Below are positions 3,380-17,955 of a stretch of 37,620 nucleotides of DNA, piece by piece. The position numbers were made by a program, and so were the translations under genes. This DNA is from Nitrospirota bacterium (GTDB lineage Bacteria; Nitrospinota_A; UBA7883). The notes below the pieces were generated by a model. It had not been told where the DNA came from and ran no database searches. It saw nothing but the letters and a program-made list of their open reading frames with translations. The stretch is from contig DRJW01000143.1 in the NCBI GenBank assembly GCA_011052055.1, positions 1 through 37,620 on the forward strand. Reading direction: 5' to 3'. How positions within the stretch are numbered: position 1 is the stretch's first letter; each line of letters begins with the position of its first letter.

Positions 3380-3395
3380 AGGCATGCTTATTGCT
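3380..3395 (+). promoter_or_regulatory. candidate sigma-54 (-24/-12) promoter of the respiratory cluster
   Basis: aGGCATGcttaTTGCTt matches TGGCACG-N4-TTGCW, with GG (3381-3382) and GC (3393-3394) in the exact 12-nt register. It lies 148 nt upstream of the ATG at 3543. A canonical sigma-54 activator is encoded divergently. Confidence 0.55.
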
Positions 3396-3542
3396 TGGAT
3401 CATAGCTCGATAAGGTTGTTTACCTTTTGATTTGAAATGTTAATAAAAGGGGCGGGGGACAATTAAAATATGTATGTTAAGTCATGTGTATCACCTCACA
3501 TGGGGCGTGGAGCCTCACAGCCAGCAAAGAAGGGATAAAGCG

Positions 3543-6008
3543 ATGAAGTTTGCGAGGAGTAGGTTAGCCAATCGCTGGCATGCAGGTGGGTTGTCACAGA
3601 TCCTTTTTATACTCCCGATCGCGCTTGTGCTCCTTGCGACTGCTTCTTTGGCCTTTGCCCAAGGCGGCGCGTCGGCGGCGCCGGTTGACTACCGGGATGT
3701 TCCCTATGTCGGGAGCCGGAATGTAATCTGGATCCTCGCCGAAGTCCATCTCCTTTTTGGCGGATTTGTTCTGGGAGTGCCGGTCTTCGCCTGGATCTGC
3801 GATGTGATCGGGACATTGACAAAAGAAGAGCGGTACAACAAGCTGGCCAATGACTTTATAGGTTTGACCCTGGCCGCTTTTGAGATGACCGCGATGCTTG
3901 GGGCCACCTTTCTCCTTTTTCTTTTAGCCCTTTATCCCAAAGTCGTAAATTACATGACGGGCATTTTTTGGCCTACCTACTACGTATATGTAATGCTTTT
4001 CGGCGCGTCCATGGTCATTCTCTACCTCTACTGGTCAGGGTTTCAGACCATGAAAAATCGTAAGGGTCTGCACCTGTTTATCGGTTTTCTGCTGAACCTT
4101 ATAGCGGTCGGTGTCATGCTCGTGCCCAACGCCTGGGCTACATTCCAGGCCAGCCCGGTGGTTCTGCCAGGGGGTATGGGCGCTTTGGAGAAGGCTTGGG
4201 CCGCAATGAACAATCCAACCTGGGGGCCGGTGAATATCCACAGGTTTATATCCAACATCGTTCTGGGCGGTTTTCTTGTCGGCGCTTATTCAGGTGTTCG
4301 TTACCTGGGGGCCCGGACACAAGAGGAGCGGGAGCACTACGACTGGATGGGATATATAGGAAACTTTATCGGGATGTTCGGCCTGCTTACGCTTCCTTTC
4401 GCCGGATACTGGCTGATGCGGGAAGTCTATATGTACAACCAGCAGATGGGGATAACCTTGATGGGTGGGTTCCTATCCTGGTTGTTCATCATTCAGGCTG
4501 TTTTGATAGGCATCCTCTTTCTTGGAGCCAATTACTACTTCTGGCTGGGTCTGGCCTATCGGACGGAAGGGGCGGAGCGGTACATGAAGCCCATACTGAT
4601 TTTGCTAACGGCCCTCTTGAGTTGCTTTATGGTGTGGCTGACGCCCCATAGCCTGGTCGCGAGCATCGCGGAGGCGCGAGCGATGGGCGGGGCGCATCAT
4701 CCTCTTTTGGGGCTCCTGGGCGTGATGTCGGCGAAGATGACTGTCGTGAACCTGATGATTCTGATTTCTTTTGTCAGCTTCCTTATGTATTGGCGCGCAG
4801 GGAGCAAGCCGACGGCCTCGTGGGCGAAGGTGGCCAACGTCCTTATTGTCATACTTTTCTTTGTGGTTATCGTAGGCGTGATCGTTATTGGAGTCTGGGG
4901 CTATTTTGTTCCAGCCATTGTCAGGATCAATGTGTTCTCCGTAACGCAGGTGCTGGCGGTTCTAACTGTACTGCTTACGGTCACTCCTCTGGTCGGGTTT
5001 ATGCTTAAGGGCGCCAAATCAACCTCAAAAATGACCTTTGGAGTAATGCCTGTGAGGTCGCAATTGGGCCTGATAGTGAATGCTGTTACGATTGTTTTCA
5101 CGATGTCATTGATGGGATACGCCCGCTCGGCTTCCCGCGTTCACTGGCATATCTACGGGGTGTTGGAAGACACCTCCCCGTATGCTTTTTCTCCCGCCCT
5201 TGGGCACGCCGGCGCCATGGCGGCGCTGGCCACATTTTTATTCTTCGCCCTGGTTGGAATTATCCTGTGGATCACTATCAGCGCTTCGCGGAGCTCCGCC
5301 TTTTCGACGCAGTATTTCTTTTTGGCTCCTTTTATCTTCTGGGCTACGACCCTTACCGGCAAGCCGGTTGAGCCGTCGTCTGGGCCGTCTGGACAGGTTG
5401 TGGAGCAACCTAAATTTATAGGAAAGGTCGCGGGGACCATTTGCGGGGTTCTACTGCTTTTTATTTGGATTTCCAATTCGGTGCCTCAGATGCAATCTCT
5501 TCCACCTAAGAAGGTAGCGTTCGATGTGTCGAATCTCAACACCAAAGCTGATCTGGTAGACGCGGGTAAAAAACTTTTCTTTGGCAAAGCTCAATGCGCG
5601 CTTTGCCATTCACTTGAACACACCGAGTCGCCACGTTGTCCTGTTATGAAAGGGCGTGGAGCCAAGCGCACGAGGGAGTATATTTTGGAGTCCATGATGC
5701 ATCCAAAGGCGGTTATCTATAAACAGTATGAAACGGCCGGGCCAGGAAAATTCTATCCGGCCCAGATGCCGGTCATCAACAAGCCGCCTATCGGCCTTTC
5801 CGATACCGAGATGCTGGCTGTCGTATCATTTATTCAAAGTTTAGGTGGCAAAGTCACGGTAGAGCCATCTGAATTAAAAGCGCTTGTAGCGGGAACTGGT
5901 AAGCTTATACCGGAAACTGCTACGGAGGAGGCTACTACAGAGGAGGCTACTACGGAGACAGCTACTACAGAGGCAACTGCTACGGAGGGTAACGGCGATG
6001 GAAATTGA
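3543..6008 (+). CDS. cytochrome bd subunit I (CydA)-like polytopic membrane protein lacking a Q-loop, fused to a C-terminal class I cytochrome c domain
   Basis: The track ORF is 3474-6008. I prefer the ATG at 3543 (GAAGGGA upstream; MKFARSRL ... signal/anchor). By-eye match to E. coli CydA:
- ILAEVHLLFGG corresponds to the H19 region.
- GFQTMKNRKGLHLFIGFLLNLIAVGVMLVPNAWATFQASP corresponds to [38 protein letters not shown].
- VNIHRFISN corresponds to the H186 region.

There are more than 12 predicted TM helices and no long hydrophilic loop. The C-terminus has CALCH plus a distal AQMP Met. Confidence 0.7.
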   Translation: MKFARSRLANRWHAGGLSQILFILPIALVLLATASLAFAQGGASAAPVDYRDVPYVGSRNVIWILAEVHLLFGGFVLGVPVFAWICDVIGTLTKEERYNKLANDFIGLTLAAFEMTAMLGATFLLFLLALYPKVVNYMTGIFWPTYYVYVMLFGASMVILYLYWSGFQTMKNRKGLHLFIGFLLNLIAVGVMLVPNAWATFQASPVVLPGGMGALEKAWAAMNNPTWGPVNIHRFISNIVLGGFLVGAYSGVRYLGARTQEEREHYDWMGYIGNFIGMFGLLTLPFAGYWLMREVYMYNQQMGITLMGGFLSWLFIIQAVLIGILFLGANYYFWLGLAYRTEGAERYMKPILILLTALLSCFMVWLTPHSLVASIAEARAMGGAHHPLLGLLGVMSAKMTVVNLMILISFVSFLMYWRAGSKPTASWAKVANVLIVILFFVVIVGVIVIGVWGYFVPAIVRINVFSVTQVLAVLTVLLTVTPLVGFMLKGAKSTSKMTFGVMPVRSQLGLIVNAVTIVFTMSLMGYARSASRVHWHIYGVLEDTSPYAFSPALGHAGAMAALATFLFFALVGIILWITISASRSSAFSTQYFFLAPFIFWATTLTGKPVEPSSGPSGQVVEQPKFIGKVAGTICGVLLLFIWISNSVPQMQSLPPKKVAFDVSNLNTKADLVDAGKKLFFGKAQCALCHSLEHTESPRCPVMKGRGAKRTREYILESMMHPKAVIYKQYETAGPGKFYPAQMPVINKPPIGLSDTEMLAVVSFIQSLGGKVTVEPSELKALVAGTGKLIPETATEEATTEEATTETATTEATATEGNGDGN
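5916..5990 (+). repeat. in-frame tandem repeat, 5 x 15 nt, encoding a Thr/Glu/Ala tail
   Basis: The units are actgctacggaggag, gctactacagaggag, gctactacggagaca, gctactacagaggca and actgctacggagggt. They translate to TATEE ATTEE ATTET ATTEA TATEG, immediately before the stop and the overlapping next start. Confidence 0.9.
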
Positions 6009-16752: not shown

Positions 16753-17883
16753 ATGAGATTAAGATCAATTATCATTTGCTTTATGGCGTTAGCCTTCGTG
16801 TCGTCAGGCCTGCTGACGCCTGACTATGCGGACGCCGCTAGGAAGAAGAAAACAAAGGCGGAGCTAAACGCCGCCAAGAAATCGGGGGATCTTTCAGAGT
16901 CGCAGGCGGAAAAGTTCCGCAACGCGTACGGGGCAGAGGCCGATGAAGCCAACATTGAGTCTTTTGAGACAAAGACCAAGAAAACTGGCTTGGGTAACTC
17001 GACTTACGGCGTAGTCGGGTTCGACTATTTGACCGGAATAGGCAAGGTCGCTTCCGATCCGTCACAGATCAACGAGAAAACCTTTAAACTCAAATCGGCC
17101 AATAAAAGCCCGCTTGAAGGCCTTATGAAGAAGCGCTTTAAGCATAAATGGACCGGACAATACAACGATACAGAGTCTGGATGGACCGGAAAAACCGGCG
17201 TGACGGAGGTCTGGTTCCGCAAGCATGATTCAGGCTCCAAGCTGGGCGCTGATTACAACGCATGGGTGAACCAGTGGAACAATCTTACTCGTCCCGGCCA
17301 TAAAAAAGGGGAGAAAGGGGCTTTCACAACCCCTGTCGCCGGCGCTGATCCCGATCAGGGCGCTCATTGGTTCTCTTTTTATTGCGTGCATTGCCACGGT
17401 TGGACCGGCAAGGGTGACGGGCCTACAGCGGCCATGTTGGATCCCCGTCCGCGTAACCTGACCAACGGCAAATACACCAACTTTGTCTCTAACGTCGATA
17501 TCTTTACCATGATCAAAGGTGGCGGCCTGGCCCGCAACCTGTCTCAGGCGATGCCTCCCTGGGGCAACGTTCTTCAGGATCAGGATATCTGGAACACCGT
17601 CGCCTTCATACGCACATTGGCCGACAAGCCGAAATACGTCCCGGATCCAAGCGACGTGACTGCGGCTAACGCCAAAAAATCACAGGAGTTCCAGGATATG
17701 AACGAGGAGCTTGAGCTACCTGGTGTCATGGCTGGTCGTGGAGTAAACAAAGGCGGCTATAACTCAGTGGGTGGAGGCAGGCTTGCCTCAGAGAAGACCG
17801 GCGTGTCTGTAAAAGAGACATCCGGTGAGAACCCATGCGCCAGGCAGGGCGATTATGGAGAAACCAGGCAGTATGATAAATAA
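16753..17883 (+). CDS. monoheme c-type cytochrome with a long N-terminal extension, secreted
   Basis: GGAGGGG precedes the ATG. A signal peptide is present. One heme-c motif in the context FYCVHCHGWTGKGDGPTAAMLDPRPRNL. This resembles heme domain 2 of the 755-aa protein (CEPCHGVKGEGDGPAAKFLVPRPRDF). Distal SQAMPPW. Confidence 0.8.
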   Translation: MRLRSIIICFMALAFVSSGLLTPDYADAARKKKTKAELNAAKKSGDLSESQAEKFRNAYGAEADEANIESFETKTKKTGLGNSTYGVVGFDYLTGIGKVASDPSQINEKTFKLKSANKSPLEGLMKKRFKHKWTGQYNDTESGWTGKTGVTEVWFRKHDSGSKLGADYNAWVNQWNNLTRPGHKKGEKGAFTTPVAGADPDQGAHWFSFYCVHCHGWTGKGDGPTAAMLDPRPRNLTNGKYTNFVSNVDIFTMIKGGGLARNLSQAMPPWGNVLQDQDIWNTVAFIRTLADKPKYVPDPSDVTAANAKKSQEFQDMNEELELPGVMAGRGVNKGGYNSVGGGRLASEKTGVSVKETSGENPCARQGDYGETRQYDK

Positions 17884-17924
17884 TCTTTTTATACTGCTAT
17901 AATTAGCGGATCGGCCCCCGCTAT

Positions 17925-17955
17925 AAAGCCCCGGTAATTTACCGGGGCTTTTTTA
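17925..17955 (+). terminator. rho-independent terminator
   Basis: An 11-bp stem (aaagccccggt / accggggcttt) with a 5-nt loop, running into a T tract (17949-17955). It lies 42 nt after the stop at 17883. Confidence 0.85.

What the first reader, a model, noticed from the sequence alone, without database searches (positions are those of the whole stretch)
3380..17955. Candidate undescribed membrane respiratory module: bd-like heme b/c subunit + two antiporter-like subunits + triheme-c/EB_dh subunit + cytochromes c + Rieske-less cytochrome b/c
**Seen in the sequence**
- There are 15 same-strand genes from 3543 to 17883, with no opposite-strand gene among them.
- Five junctions have overlapping stop/start codons, which suggests translational coupling: 5998-6008, 7452-7455, 7841-7848, 11718-11721 and 15738-15760.
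- There is one sigma-54-type promoter in front and only one strong terminator, at 17925-17955.
- Eight proteins carry 12 CxxCH motifs between them.

**Not present in the window**
- No molybdopterin or FeS catalytic subunit.
- No NuoB/D/H-type quinone module.
- No recognisable MrpC/E/F/G small subunits.
- No heme-copper oxidase.
- No Rieske protein.

**Established knowledge**
- Nuo L/M/N-MrpA/D family subunits are the ion-translocating modules of complex I, Mrp antiporters and membrane-bound hydrogenases.
- CydA binds quinol and b-type hemes.
- EB_dh domains are the heme-b gamma subunits of periplasmic type II DMSO-reductase-family enzymes (NxrC, EbdC, SerC, ClrC).

**Inference**
- Placing antiporter-like pumps between a quinol-reactive heme protein and a high-potential cytochrome c chain suggests a pmf-coupled quinone/cytochrome c oxidoreductase.
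- It could run forward as a pump. It could also run in reverse, driven by pmf, to push electrons from a high-potential donor up to the quinone pool.
- To my knowledge this subunit combination is not a described complex.

**Caveat**
- The gaps at 12483-12606, 13677-13891, 14450-14614 and 16368-16752 could hold internal promoters, so this may be 3-4 transcription units.
Basis: partly seen in the sequence, partly recalled or inferred. Interest (0 to 1): 0.9.

Follow-up and report, generated by a model that had tools for sequence, protein, structure and literature searches.

The report
Bd-like oxidase with Mrp-type pump genes
This is a real, conserved gene cluster joining an unusual cytochrome bd-like oxygen reductase, two antiporter-like ion channels and many cytochromes, but it is a variant of the untested 'TO_2' terminal-oxidase cluster already described in manganese-oxidising Nitrospirota, not an undescribed system.

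Summary
I find 13 same-strand ORFs (not 15) and 11 CxxCH motifs in 7 proteins (not 12 in 8). The five start/stop overlaps and the terminator at 17925-17951 are confirmed. There are two sigma-54-like sites, not one.

The 821-aa protein is an OR-N2-type cytochrome bd-like protein:
- a profile matches CydA at E=2e-10;
- the AlphaFold model's top ten PDB matches are all CydA;
- the equivalent of CydA His19 is invariant.

The MrpD1-41aa-88aa-MrpD2 block is copied from the 3' end of full Mrp antiporter operons of anaerobes.

Bd-like plus MrpD pair plus cytochrome c/EB_dh recurs in two gene orders across Nitrospirota. These include Nitrospira sp. Kam-Ns4a and marine Candidatus Manganitrophaceae.

Yu et al. 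2022 (and, as they cite it, Yu and Leadbetter 2020) already described this combination as terminal oxidase 'TO_2', with the same pump-or-reverse-electron-flow hypothesis. The claim that it is undescribed therefore fails.

New here:
- The cluster occurs outside Manganitrophaceae.
- It derives from an Mrp operon and carries two small subunits with it.
- The window-type clade has Ser/Thr where CydA has a proton-channel Glu.
- Oxidase-linked MrpD1 mostly lacks the TM8 Lys.
- One relative has a porin-cytochrome module directly upstream.

The function remains biochemically untested.

The parts
997..2775 (-). dCache sensor histidine kinase, divergently placed upstream; a possible regulator
   Evidence: Pfam HATPase_c and dCache_1. 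Orthologues sit at the same upstream, opposite-strand position in L087 and L166 (43-47% identity).
3381..3395 (+). sigma-54-like -24/-12 element GGCATGCTTATTGCT
   Evidence: identical in L085. Its function was not tested.
3543..6008 (+). OR-N2-type cytochrome bd-like protein of 821 aa (alternative start 3474). It has a signal anchor, 14 TM helices and a C-terminal monoheme cytochrome c domain (CALCH at residue 685).
   Evidence: Profile versus PDB CydA: E=2.4e-10 and 2.3e-9. AF2 model pLDDT 81.6. The Foldseek top 10 are all CydA. His69 aligns with CydA His21 of Geobacillus and is conserved; Ser156 sits where Geobacillus has Glu108. The heme c domain matches 7zs0, a +350 mV anammox dihaem cytochrome, at E=1e-21.
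5998..7455 (+). MrpD1, an antiporter-like subunit of 485 aa
   Evidence: PF00361 and PF00662. Best PDB match is MbhH 6cfw_H at E=1e-43. TM5 Glu, TM7 Lys and TM12 Lys are kept; TM8 Lys is replaced by Asp.
7452..7577 (+). 41-aa single-TM protein with the motif HEPxPGY
   Evidence: Conserved between MrpD1 and MrpD2 both in oxidase clusters and in full Mrp operons.
7582..7848 (+). 88-aa two-TM protein with the C-terminal motif RxEDYYD
   Evidence: Conserved partner of the MrpD pair. No Pfam or PDB relative was found.
7841..9403 (+). MrpD2, an antiporter-like subunit of 520 aa (alternative TTG start 7817)
   Evidence: NCBIfam NF009310, 724 bits against a cut-off of 564. Best PDB match is the MBS subunit 6u8y_X at E=1.5e-37. 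It is 63-73% identical to the last gene of Mrp operons. TM7 Lys is Asn across the whole family.
9454..11721 (+). 755-aa membrane-anchored protein with three heme c sites and an EB_dh (heme b) domain
   Evidence: PF13442 and PF00034 three times, plus PF09459. TIGR03477 at 121 bits. PDB matches: 6h5l_B E=2.6e-54, NxrC 7b04_C E=8e-18, EbdC 2ivf_C E=1e-10.
11718..12482 (+). diheme cytochrome c of 254 aa
   Evidence: Two CxxCH motifs; Pfam; conserved after the EB_dh gene in types A, B and C.
12592..13278 (+). diheme cytochrome c of 228 aa
   Evidence: Together with the next gene it lies upstream of the bd-like gene in L087 and L166.
13293..13676 (+). monoheme cytochrome c of 127 aa
13820..14449 (+). 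209-aa exported protein of unknown family; it is not a Rieske protein
   Evidence: No Pfam or NCBIfam hit. An orthologue at 54% identity precedes the cytochrome b gene in L166.
14591..15760 (+). cytochrome b6-like dihaem b module with extra TM helices and a C-terminal CNSCH heme c site
   Evidence: PF00033. Cytochrome b6 7r0w_I at E=1.3e-30, with the four His read directly from the sequence. Orthologue at 64% identity in L166.
15738..16367 (+). 209-aa protein of unknown family
   Evidence: No family hit. Orthologue at 42% identity in L166.
16521..16535 (+). palindrome TGACAAATTTTGTCA, a candidate activator binding site
   Evidence: conserved in L166.
16665..16679 (+). second sigma-54-like element GGTATATATGTTGCT
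   Evidence: conserved GG...TTGCT in L166.
16753..17883 (+). 376-aa monoheme cytochrome c
   Evidence: Orthologue at 71% identity in L166.
17925..17951 (+). intrinsic-terminator-like hairpin with a T-run
27702..31164 (+). HAMP/HisKA histidine kinase and NtrC-type sigma-54 activator; candidate regulators of the sigma-54-like sites (inference only)
   Evidence: Pfam.

Best explanation
The cluster is a window-type ('type A') variant of the TO_2 terminal-oxidase cluster known from Candidatus Manganitrophaceae.

Shown here:
- An OR-N2 cytochrome bd-like protein with its own heme c domain is translationally coupled to a four-gene block, MrpD1-41aa-88aa-MrpD2.
- That block was taken from the 3' end of a multi-MrpD Mrp antiporter operon.
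- It is followed by a membrane-anchored triheme c/heme b (EB_dh) protein, four further c-type cytochromes and a Rieske-less cytochrome b with a heme c site.

Inferred mechanism:
1. Electrons from a high-potential periplasmic donor chain enter through the soluble and anchored cytochromes c and the EB_dh protein. The donor may be metal oxidation through a porin-cytochrome module, as in relative L168, or nitrite oxidation, as in Nitrospira Kam-Ns4a.
2. They pass to the heme c domain and the b-type hemes of the bd-like subunit, where O2 is reduced.
3. The free energy of this step moves ions outward through the two antiporter-like subunits. This would make a pumping version of an enzyme family that normally does not pump.
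4. The cytochrome b/c protein links the same cytochrome c pool to quinone, which is needed for reverse electron flow in an autotroph.
For: Identity and linkage:
- CydA homology holds at profile level (E=2.4e-10 and 2.3e-9) and at fold level (pLDDT 81.6; the top 10 PDB matches are all CydA with probability 1.0).
- The ligand His of the O2-reducing heme (His69, aligned with Geobacillus His21) is conserved in 100 of 101 aligned residues from related loci.
- The bd-like gene and the MrpD pair are adjacent in two different orders. Type A: L004, L085-L091, L094, L166-L168. Type B: L001, L095, L096, L104, L122, L141.
- In neighbour-joining trees, the Mrp-linked bd-like proteins form one clade apart from 57 Mrp-less ones, and the oxidase-linked MrpD1 proteins form one clade nested inside Mrp-operon MrpD1.

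Signs of co-adaptation:
- All 12 members of the type A clade have Ser or Thr where Geobacillus CydA has the proton-channel Glu108. That count is 10 confirmed type A loci plus two truncated contigs. Type B has Glu in 6 of 6, type C in 65 of 67 (its two exceptions being those same truncated contigs) and the short paralogue in 25 of 26.
- The TM8 Lys of MrpD1 is kept in 67 of 68 Mrp-operon copies but in only 2 of 16 oxidase-linked copies.

Ion-channel residues retained: TM5 Glu and TM12 Lys in both subunits, TM7 Lys in MrpD1 and TM8 Lys in MrpD2.

Electron entry:
- The heme c domain resembles a +350 mV anammox cytochrome.
- The EB_dh domain resembles NxrC and EbdC.
- Relative L168 has MtrB/PioB porin, multiheme cytochrome and multicopper-oxidase-like genes directly upstream on the same strand.

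Literature: TO_2 was described and proposed as an O2-reducing, motive-force-coupled complex (PMC9040806). OR-N enzymes are proposed to be cytochrome c-oxidising O2 reductases.
Against: - No OR-N enzyme has been purified, so O2 reduction is inferred from homology only (one search states this).
- There is no known coupling element. NuoH/A/J/K or MrpB/C/E/F/G equivalents are absent, so how redox chemistry would drive the antiporter-like subunits is unknown.
- Both MrpD-like proteins deviate at canonical charged positions. MrpD1 has Asp at TM8. MrpD2 has Asn at TM7 and, in this window, Glu at TM11.
- The window's EB_dh domain has Lys where EbdC has the heme b ligand Met108 and close relatives have Met.
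- The direction of ion flow cannot be read from sequence.
- The trees are simple neighbour-joining trees without support values.
- A second sigma-54-like promoter and movable cytochrome genes show that the 13 genes need not form one complex.
Confidence: 0.55

Rival explanations
1. The antiporter-like pair consumes motive force rather than generating it. Inward ion flow drives uphill electron transfer from cytochrome c (about +350 to +470 mV) to quinone through the cytochrome b/c protein, while part of the electrons go to O2 at the bd-like subunit. This is the bifurcation-like scheme of Yu et al. 2022 and the reader's 'reverse' option.
For: - Proposed for TO_2 in PMC9040806.
- A dihaem cytochrome b with a heme c site is in the cluster and conserved in L166.
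- Autotrophs living on high-potential donors need reverse electron flow.
- Type B and some type A loci (L004, L167) carry Rieske/cytochrome b genes next to the module.
Against: - The cytochrome b gene is separated from the Mrp block by five genes and three intergenic gaps of 109-143 nt, whereas the bd-like gene overlaps MrpD1 by 11 nt.
- In L168 the cluster ends after the diheme cytochrome c with no cytochrome b, although an insertion sequence follows and may have truncated it.
- The clade-specific substitutions link MrpD1 to the bd-like subunit, not to cytochrome b.
Confidence: 0.25
2. The genes are neighbours but not one machine. On this view there are three separate units: a cytochrome c-oxidising bd-like oxidase with its cytochromes; a separate two-subunit Mrp-derived cation/proton transporter for salt or pH homeostasis; and an unrelated cytochrome b/c unit.
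For: - The MrpD pair with its two small proteins is 63-73% identical to part of ordinary Mrp antiporter operons.
- Most OR-N2 clusters (57 of the loci examined) work without it.
- There are several candidate promoters, and the c2b-c1 pair is movable.
Against: - In Mrp operons the pair never occurs without MrpB/C/E/F/G-type genes. Here those genes are absent, and the pair is instead translationally coupled to the oxidase.
- The adjacency survives a gene-order inversion between types A and B.
- Substitutions in both partners correlate with the linkage.
Confidence: 0.12
3. The bd-like subunit is not an O2 reductase here. It serves as a multi-heme b membrane conduit, and the EB_dh protein docks a periplasmic molybdoenzyme (NXR-like) encoded elsewhere. 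The module would then be the membrane part of a nitrite or other oxyanion oxidoreductase.
For: - The EB_dh domain is homologous to NxrC (E=8e-18) and EbdC.
- The type A cluster is present in the nitrite oxidiser Nitrospira sp. Kam-Ns4a.
- Type A has lost the conserved proton-channel Glu.
Against: - No molybdopterin or FeS subunit was found in the 37.6-kb window or in the flanks of L004, L166, L167 and L168.
- The active-site His of CydA is invariant.
- Kam-Ns4a is reported to have no terminal oxidase other than OR-N enzymes (PMC12342949).
Confidence: 0.08

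Closest known systems
TO_2 terminal-oxidase gene cluster of Candidatus Manganitrophaceae (Yu et al. 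2022 mBio, PMC9040806; they cite Yu and Leadbetter 2020 Nature)
   Same: - Same parts list: bd-like (OR-N) subunit, two MrpD-like subunits, periplasmic heme b (EB_dh) protein with heme c, membrane cytochrome b and several cytochromes c.
- In neighbour-joining trees, the bd-like and MrpD1 proteins of the window group with those of the marine Manganitrophaceae MAG GCA_015659975 (L001).
   Different: - Gene order is inverted: the bd-like gene comes first here, and after the MrpD pair there.
- The window has no Rieske gene, and its cytochrome b carries a heme c site.
- The window clade has Ser instead of the proton-channel Glu.
- Its MrpD2 is close to Mrp-operon MrpD2 (about 70% identity), whereas type B MrpD2 is only 28-49% identical.
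- Identity to L001 is only 55% for the bd-like protein, 43% for MrpD1 and 39% for the EB_dh protein.
- The paper states that TO_2 is restricted to Manganitrophaceae. The type A form is also in Nitrospira sp. Kam-Ns4a.
TO_1 / OR-N2 (NIDE0901-like) cytochrome bd-like oxidase clusters of Nitrospira and Nitrospina
   Same: The core is the same: an OR-N2 protein followed by cytochrome c, an EB_dh protein and a diheme cytochrome c. This is type C, and most loci are of this type. The conserved histidines are the same.
   Different: There is no MrpD pair. The proton-channel Glu is kept (65 of 67). These proteins form a separate clade.
Multi-MrpD ('group 3'-like) Mrp cation/proton antiporter operons of Desulfobacterota, Thermodesulfovibrio, anammox bacteria and some archaea
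   Same: The last four genes of those operons (MrpD1', 41-aa, 88-aa, MrpD2') are the direct source of the window's block: 45-53% identity for MrpD1 and 63-73% for MrpD2, in the same order and with the same small proteins.
   Different: The window lacks MrpE, F, G, MbhD/MnhB, MrpC and the third MrpD. The TM8 Lys of MrpD1 is replaced.
Canonical quinol-oxidising cytochrome bd (CydAB; PDB 5doq, 6rko, 7oy2, 9r2g)
   Same: Same fold and the same ligand His for the O2-reducing heme.
   Different: - There are 14 TM helices plus a heme c domain.
- Sequence homology covers only the first four to five helices.
- There is no CydB gene.
- The OR-N family is described as lacking the quinol site.
- Glu101 and, in this clade, Glu108 of Geobacillus CydA are not conserved.
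MBH and MBS respiratory complexes of Pyrococcus (PDB 6cfw, 6u8y) and complex I
   Same: These contain the closest solved relatives of MrpD1 (MbhH, E=1e-43) and MrpD2 (MBS antiporter-like subunit 6u8y_X, E=1.5e-37). In them a redox module drives Mrp-type antiporter-like subunits.
   Different: No NuoB/D/H/L-type redox or coupling module is present. The redox partner here would be a heme oxidase on the periplasmic, high-potential side.

Membership tests
TO_2-type cluster (Yu et al. 2022) | A cytochrome bd-like (OR-N) subunit is encoded in the cluster | tested here: met
TO_2-type cluster (Yu et al. 2022) | Two MrpD-like antiporter subunits lie adjacent to the bd-like gene | tested here: met
   PF00361 twice; 11-nt overlap between the bd-like gene and MrpD1.
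TO_2-type cluster (Yu et al. 2022) | Both a periplasm-accessible cytochrome b and a membrane-embedded cytochrome b are present | tested here: met
   EB_dh domain protein at 9454-11721 and PF00033 cytochrome b at 14591-15760.
TO_2-type cluster (Yu et al. 2022) | Orthology to the Manganitrophaceae genes (same clade) | tested here: inconclusive
   In neighbour-joining trees, bd-like and MrpD1 proteins of types A and B group together. MrpD2 does not clearly do so. No bootstrap support was computed. The Mn1 reference locus itself was not available; only the marine MAG L001 was.
TO_2-type cluster (Yu et al. 2022) | Occurrence restricted to Candidatus Manganitrophaceae (a claim of the paper rather than a definition) | tested here: not met
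   A type A cluster is present in the complete genome of Nitrospira sp. Kam-Ns4a (L004). NCBI labels the window's MAG only as 'Nitrospirota bacterium'.
Cytochrome bd superfamily, OR-N2 subfamily (Murali, Gennis and Hemp 2021) | The first four helices are shared with CydA, with the His19 (E. coli numbering) ligand conserved | tested here: met
   His69 aligns with Geobacillus His21 and is conserved in 100 of 101 aligned residues.
Cytochrome bd superfamily, OR-N2 subfamily (Murali, Gennis and Hemp 2021) | 14 transmembrane helices | tested here: met
   The AF2 model shows a signal anchor plus 14 long helices before the heme c domain. A hydropathy scan gives about 14.
Cytochrome bd superfamily, OR-N2 subfamily (Murali, Gennis and Hemp 2021) | The quinol-binding Q-loop is absent | tested here: inconclusive
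   HMM homology to CydA ends near profile position 250, before the Q-loop region. I made no residue-level check of the Q-loop residues, and the paper's classifier HMMs were not available.
Mrp cation/proton antiporter | A full set of MrpA(-like), B, C, D, E, F and G subunits | tested here: not met
   Only the two MrpD-like genes and two small unknown proteins are present. Compare the full operon in L076.
Complex I / MBH / MBS family | A NuoB/NuoD/NuoH-type redox and coupling module | tested here: not met
   No such Pfam or NCBIfam hit among the window ORFs scanned.
Cytochrome bc1 / b6f (Rieske/cytochrome b) complex | A Rieske 2Fe-2S subunit encoded alongside the cytochrome b | tested here: not met
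   No PF00355 in the window. The proteins flanking the cytochrome b have no family hit. Type B loci and L004/L167 do have a Rieske gene.
Type II DMSO-reductase-family enzyme (NXR/EBDH-like) | Molybdopterin alpha and FeS beta subunits together with the EB_dh gamma subunit | tested here: not met
   Only the EB_dh domain is present. It scores 121 bits against TIGR03477, below the 170-bit cut-off. No alpha or beta subunit is in the window.

The most novel reading that the evidence does not exclude
The window-type (type A) clade is a distinct and so far unrecognised form. In it the bd-like oxidase has given up its own proton-channel glutamate (Glu to Ser/Thr in 12 of 12) and is hard-wired to an Mrp-derived two-channel module whose first subunit has in turn lost its central TM8 lysine. 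If the two changes are functionally linked, substrate and/or pumped protons would be routed through the antiporter-like subunits. The complex would then be a true redox-driven ion pump built from a bd-type oxidase. That coupling principle is not known for any terminal oxidase. It would be present in nitrite oxidisers (Nitrospira lineage VIII) as well as in putative metal oxidisers.
Probability: 0.2. Interest if true: 0.85.

Novelty: new variant of a known kind. Interest (0 to 1): 0.5.

Why it matters
Chemolithoautotrophs that live on very high-potential donors such as nitrite, Mn(II) or Fe(II) have little energy per electron, and how they conserve it is an open problem. Many of these organisms have OR-N 'bd-like' oxidases as their main or only terminal oxidase, and none has been characterised.

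A bd-type oxidase equipped with complex-I/Mrp-type ion channels would change the energy budget assumed for these organisms. It would also be a new way of coupling O2 reduction to ion translocation.

Two results here bear on how the problem can be studied:
- The module is not confined to Manganitrophaceae. This weakens its use as a marker of manganese lithotrophy.
- It is present in Nitrospira sp. Kam-Ns4a, a nitrite-oxidising enrichment culture with a closed genome, which offers a cultivable system for biochemical work.

Tried and rejected
- Pfam did not report PF01654 for the window's 821-aa protein at E<=0.01. I therefore used a family profile against PDB and a structure model.
- The first AlphaFold run used an 18-sequence alignment and gave pLDDT 50, so it was discarded. 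A 103-sequence alignment gave pLDDT 81.6.
- A profile of the 88-aa protein against PDB gave only a chance-level hit (E=0.017, a phosphate transporter). Neither small protein could be assigned to a known Mrp or complex I subunit.
- Yu and Leadbetter 2020 (DOI and PMC7802741) is not held. TO_2 is therefore cited through the 2022 paper.
- I tried to obtain the window's assembly accession and taxonomy. Only the label 'Nitrospirota bacterium' (HEB71699.1) came back. Close relatives were binned as Nitrospinae by another study, so the lineage below phylum level is unresolved. It is probably not one of the three marine Manganitrophaceae MAGs of Yu 2022. L001 is one of those and differs from the window. 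My exclusion of the other two rests on their accession style, which is an inference.
- I tried to read the Mn1 TO_2 gene order from Table S6 of the paper. The results were not informative.
- I considered and rejected the idea that the 209-aa protein before the cytochrome b is a degenerate Rieske protein. It has no Cys/His cluster motif and no family hit.
- Rfam and tRNA scans of the window found nothing.
- The general sigma-54 consensus search is not enriched over chance (121 matches against 144 expected). The narrower pattern (2 matches against 0.16 expected) was derived from the two sites themselves, so its statistic is circular. Conservation in L085 and L166 is the only independent support.

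Full report
**1. What is in the window**

Between 3543 and 17883 there are 13 credible + strand ORFs, with no independent minus-strand gene among them. The + strand of 3380-17955 holds exactly 11 CxxCH motifs in 7 ORFs, not 12 in 8.

The hairpin at 17925-17951 is the best terminator-like site outside a coding region. A sigma-54-like element, GGCATGCTTATTGCT, lies at 3381-3395. A second one, GGTATATATGTTGCT, lies at 16665-16679 in front of the last cytochrome c gene. Its GG...TTGCT core and an upstream palindrome (16521-16535) are conserved in the relative L166. The run is therefore probably at least two transcription units.

**2. Family assignments**

Pfam and NCBIfam give the following:

| Gene | Assignment |
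|---|---|
| 5998-7455 and 7841-9403 | PF00361 antiporter-like. The second scores 724 bits against NF009310, above its cut-off. |
| 9454-11721 | Three cytochrome c domains plus EB_dh. |
| 11718-12482 and 12592-13278 | Diheme cytochromes c. |
| 13293-13676 and 16753-17883 | Monoheme cytochromes c. |
| 14591-15760 | Cytochrome b (PF00033). |

Four proteins (41, 88, 209 and 209 aa) have no family. No Rieske, molybdopterin, FeS, NuoB/D/H, MrpB/C/E/F/G or heme-copper oxidase domain was found in the 31 window ORFs scanned.

The window is a MAG contig. The 844-aa form of the first protein is HEB71699.1, labelled 'Nitrospirota bacterium'.

**3. The 821-aa protein is bd-like, but of the OR-N kind**

- Pfam reported only its C-terminal cytochrome c domain.
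- A profile of 18 homologues matches CydA of Mycobacterium (9r2g_A, E=2.4e-10) and Geobacillus (5doq_A, E=2.3e-9). The match covers only the first four to five helices.
- An AlphaFold model from a 103-sequence alignment (pLDDT 81.6, pTM 0.83) shows a signal anchor, 14 long helices and a cytochrome c domain.
- Its ten best PDB matches are all CydA chains, with probability 1.0 and target TM-scores of 0.46-0.58.
- His69 aligns with Geobacillus His21 (E. coli His19), the ligand of the O2-reducing heme. It is conserved in 100 of 101 aligned residues from related loci.

These features fit the OR-N2 subfamily of Murali, Gennis and Hemp. That subfamily has 14 helices and no quinol site, with cytochrome c as the presumed donor.

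The heme c domain resembles a +350 mV dihaem cytochrome of an anammox bacterium (7zs0, E=1e-21).

**4. The antiporter-like block comes from Mrp operons**

A scan of species-representative genomes with MrpD2 returned 80 loci at 61-73% identity. They come from Desulfobacterota, Thermodesulfovibrionales, anammox bacteria, Nitrospirota and a few archaea.

In nearly all of them the order is MrpD(third copy)-MrpD1'-41aa-88aa-MrpD2'. In Desulfospira joergensenii this block is preceded by MrpE, MrpF, MrpG, MbhD, MnhB/MbhE and MrpC.

The window therefore holds the last four genes of a multi-MrpD Mrp operon, without the rest. The 41-aa (HEPxPGY motif) and 88-aa (C-terminal RxEDYYD) proteins are constant companions of the pair. 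They have no detectable relative in PDB or Pfam.

The closest solved relatives are MbhH of MBH for MrpD1 and an antiporter-like subunit of MBS for MrpD2.

**5. Synteny**

A metagenome scan with the bd-like protein gave 79 loci. With targeted look-ups, three architectures appear.

- **Type A, the window order: bd-like-MrpD1-41-88-MrpD2-c/EB_dh-diheme c.**
  - Found in L085-L091, L094, L166, L167 and L168.
  - Also in L004, the closed genome of Nitrospira sp. Kam-Ns4a.
  - L166 (80% identity) has all 13 window genes, with the c2b-c1 pair moved in front of the bd-like gene.
- **Type B: c-c-MrpD1-(88)-MrpD2-bd-like-c-c/EB_dh-...-Rieske-cytochrome b.**
  - Found in L001-L003 (GCA_015659975, one of the marine Candidatus Manganitrophaceae MAGs of Yu et al. 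2022).
  - Also in L095, L096, L104, L122 and L141.
- **Type C:** the same core without any MrpD. This is most Nitrospira-like loci.

**6. It is already described**

Yu et al. 2022 (PMC9040806) credit Yu and Leadbetter 2020 with first identifying the terminal oxidase complexes, and they describe TO_2 as follows:
- both a periplasm-accessible and a membrane-embedded cytochrome b.

They propose O2 reduction with either generation or dissipation of motive force, the latter to drive quinone reduction.

In the searchable library this is the only paper that combines these terms. I found no biochemical characterisation of any OR-N enzyme there, and states that none exists.

**7. What goes beyond the literature**

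(a) *Distribution.* The paper states that TO_2 is restricted to Manganitrophaceae. Type A is present in Nitrospira sp. Kam-Ns4a. The reports I could read on that genome mention extra nuoL/M-like genes only next to its Mnh/Mrp antiporter, not this cluster. Type A also occurs in hydrothermal, Tara and other metagenomes.

(b) *Clades.* In a neighbour-joining tree of the membrane domain, all Mrp-linked bd-like proteins form one clade, separate from 57 type C proteins. That clade contains types A and B plus four truncated contigs. Oxidase-linked MrpD1 proteins likewise form one clade nested within Mrp-operon MrpD1. This suggests one recruitment followed by a rearrangement. However, type B MrpD2 is on a long branch and only 28-49% identical, and the trees carry no support values.

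(c) *Proton-channel residue.* The position aligned with Geobacillus Glu108 varies as follows:

| Group | Residue at the Glu108 position |
|---|---|
| Type B | Glu in 6 of 6 |
| Type C | Glu in 65 of 67 |
| Short OR-N1-like paralogue | Glu in 25 of 26 |
| Type A clade | Ser or Thr in 12 of 12 |

The two type C exceptions are contigs that end at the bd-like gene. They fall inside the type A clade in the tree and are counted among its 12.

(d) *MrpD residues*.
- The central TM8 Lys of MrpD1 is kept in 67 of 68 Mrp-operon copies. It is replaced (Asp, Asn or Gly) in 14 of 16 oxidase-linked copies, and the window has Asp.
- MrpD2 has Asn or Ser for the TM7 Lys everywhere, which is a family trait.
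- TM5 Glu and TM12 Lys are kept in both subunits.

(e) *Donor context.* In L168 (73% identity) the type A cluster is directly preceded, on the same strand, by a multicopper-oxidase-like protein, cytochromes c, a multiheme NrfB-like cytochrome and an MtrB/PioB porin. That context is typical of extracellular metal oxidation. In L004 and L167 it is preceded by a short CydA paralogue, cytochrome c, Rieske and cytochrome b genes.

**8. Other subunits**

- Residues 291-506 of the 755-aa protein match a Kuenenia cytochrome c (6h5l_B, E=2.6e-54).
- Its EB_dh domain matches NxrC (E=8e-18) and EbdC (E=1e-10).
- The Lys ligand of EbdC heme b (Lys201) is matched.
- The Met ligand (Met108) position is Lys in the window. 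It is Met in two of the five related type A sequences aligned here (L085 and L088) and in all type B sequences, and His or Met in type C. The window codon is AAG, one base from ATG.
- The cytochrome b has a b6-like four-helix module (E=1.3e-30 to 7r0w_I) with the four heme-ligand His. Further helices and a CNSCH site follow. No Rieske partner is present in the window or in L166.

**9. Mechanism**

Shown here:
- the parts list;
- the tight and rearrangement-resistant linkage of the bd-like gene with the MrpD block;
- retention of the O2-site His and of most channel residues;
- clade-specific changes in both partners.

Inferred: electrons from a high-potential periplasmic chain pass through the cytochromes c and the EB_dh protein to the bd-like subunit, which reduces O2. 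The antiporter-like pair couples this step to ion movement. The cytochrome b/c protein connects the cytochrome c pool to quinone.

The direction of ion flow, the identity of the ion, the coupling mechanism and whether all 13 products form one complex cannot be decided from sequence. No NuoH/A/J/K or MrpB/C/E/F/G equivalent is present to suggest a coupling element.

**10. Verdict**

This is a genuine, conserved and biochemically unexplored respiratory module. It is a variant of a published kind (TO_2), not an undescribed one. Its interest lies in three points:
- the wider distribution;
- the Mrp-operon origin with two unknown small subunits;
- the paired substitutions, which suggest functional integration.

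Noticed in passing
L168:2321-9998 (ENA ERZ23486227, scaffold_128): The following genes lie directly upstream of a type A bd-like/MrpD cluster, on the same strand: a multicopper-oxidase-like protein, cytochromes c, an NrfB-like multiheme cytochrome, an MtrB/PioB-type outer-membrane porin and a CarboxypepD_reg protein. This is a porin-cytochrome electron-uptake context. The cluster is cut after the diheme cytochrome c by transposase genes.
   Followed up: partly
window 11290-11292 (residue 613 of the 755-aa protein): The EB_dh domain has Lys (AAG) where EbdC has the heme b ligand Met108. Two of the five related type A sequences (L085, L088) and all type B sequences have Met there; type C has His or Met. 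It is one base away from ATG. It may be a real ligand switch or a MAG consensus error.
   Followed up: partly
window 8747-8749 (residue 303 of MrpD2): The TM11 Lys that is conserved in 81 of 82 Mrp-operon MrpD2 proteins and in the other four type A copies is Glu in the window.
   Followed up: no
window 34206-36539: A sigma-54-like site (TGGTATATCGTTTGCA, 34206-34221) precedes a 140-aa ORF and a 600-aa protein. The 600-aa protein combines a beta-propeller (YNCE, nos_propeller and cytochrome d1-like Pfam hits) with a C-terminal cupredoxin domain. It could be a periplasmic copper redox protein related to the electron donor side.
   Followed up: no
L004:7575-7808 and L167:17960-18172: Small ATP-synt_C (c-subunit-like, 70-77 aa) genes are embedded in the bd-like/Rieske/MrpD clusters of Nitrospira sp. 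Kam-Ns4a and of a 221-kb metagenome contig. The window has no counterpart.
   Followed up: no
window 26894-27742; L167:19585-21431; L004:19056-19925; L167:21428-22300: FGE-sulfatase-domain genes lie near the cluster both in the window and in L167 (two copies, 34-38% identical to the window's). A UbiA-family prenyltransferase gene flanks the cluster in L004 and L167 and may be involved in heme modification.
   Followed up: no
window 27702-31164 and 997-2775: Two sensor kinases and an NtrC-type sigma-54 activator are present. The dCache kinase at 997-2775 keeps its divergent position upstream of the cluster in L087 and L166.
   Followed up: partly
window 18083-22809: An ABC-2 type transporter set lies immediately downstream of the terminator: ATPase, permease, GldG-like ABC_transp_aux protein and a DUF4340 protein. 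It is followed by a small cytochrome c gene at 23467-23865.
   Followed up: no
window 31219-33963: A 914-aa fusion protein combines an MFS-like membrane domain, a spermidine-synthase-like domain and TPR repeats.
   Followed up: no
L020:19415-21085 and L076:12984-15003: Some genomes with the full Mrp operon carry a second, oppositely oriented copy of the 88-aa gene plus MrpD2 nearby. This suggests that the pair can duplicate and move as a unit.
   Followed up: no
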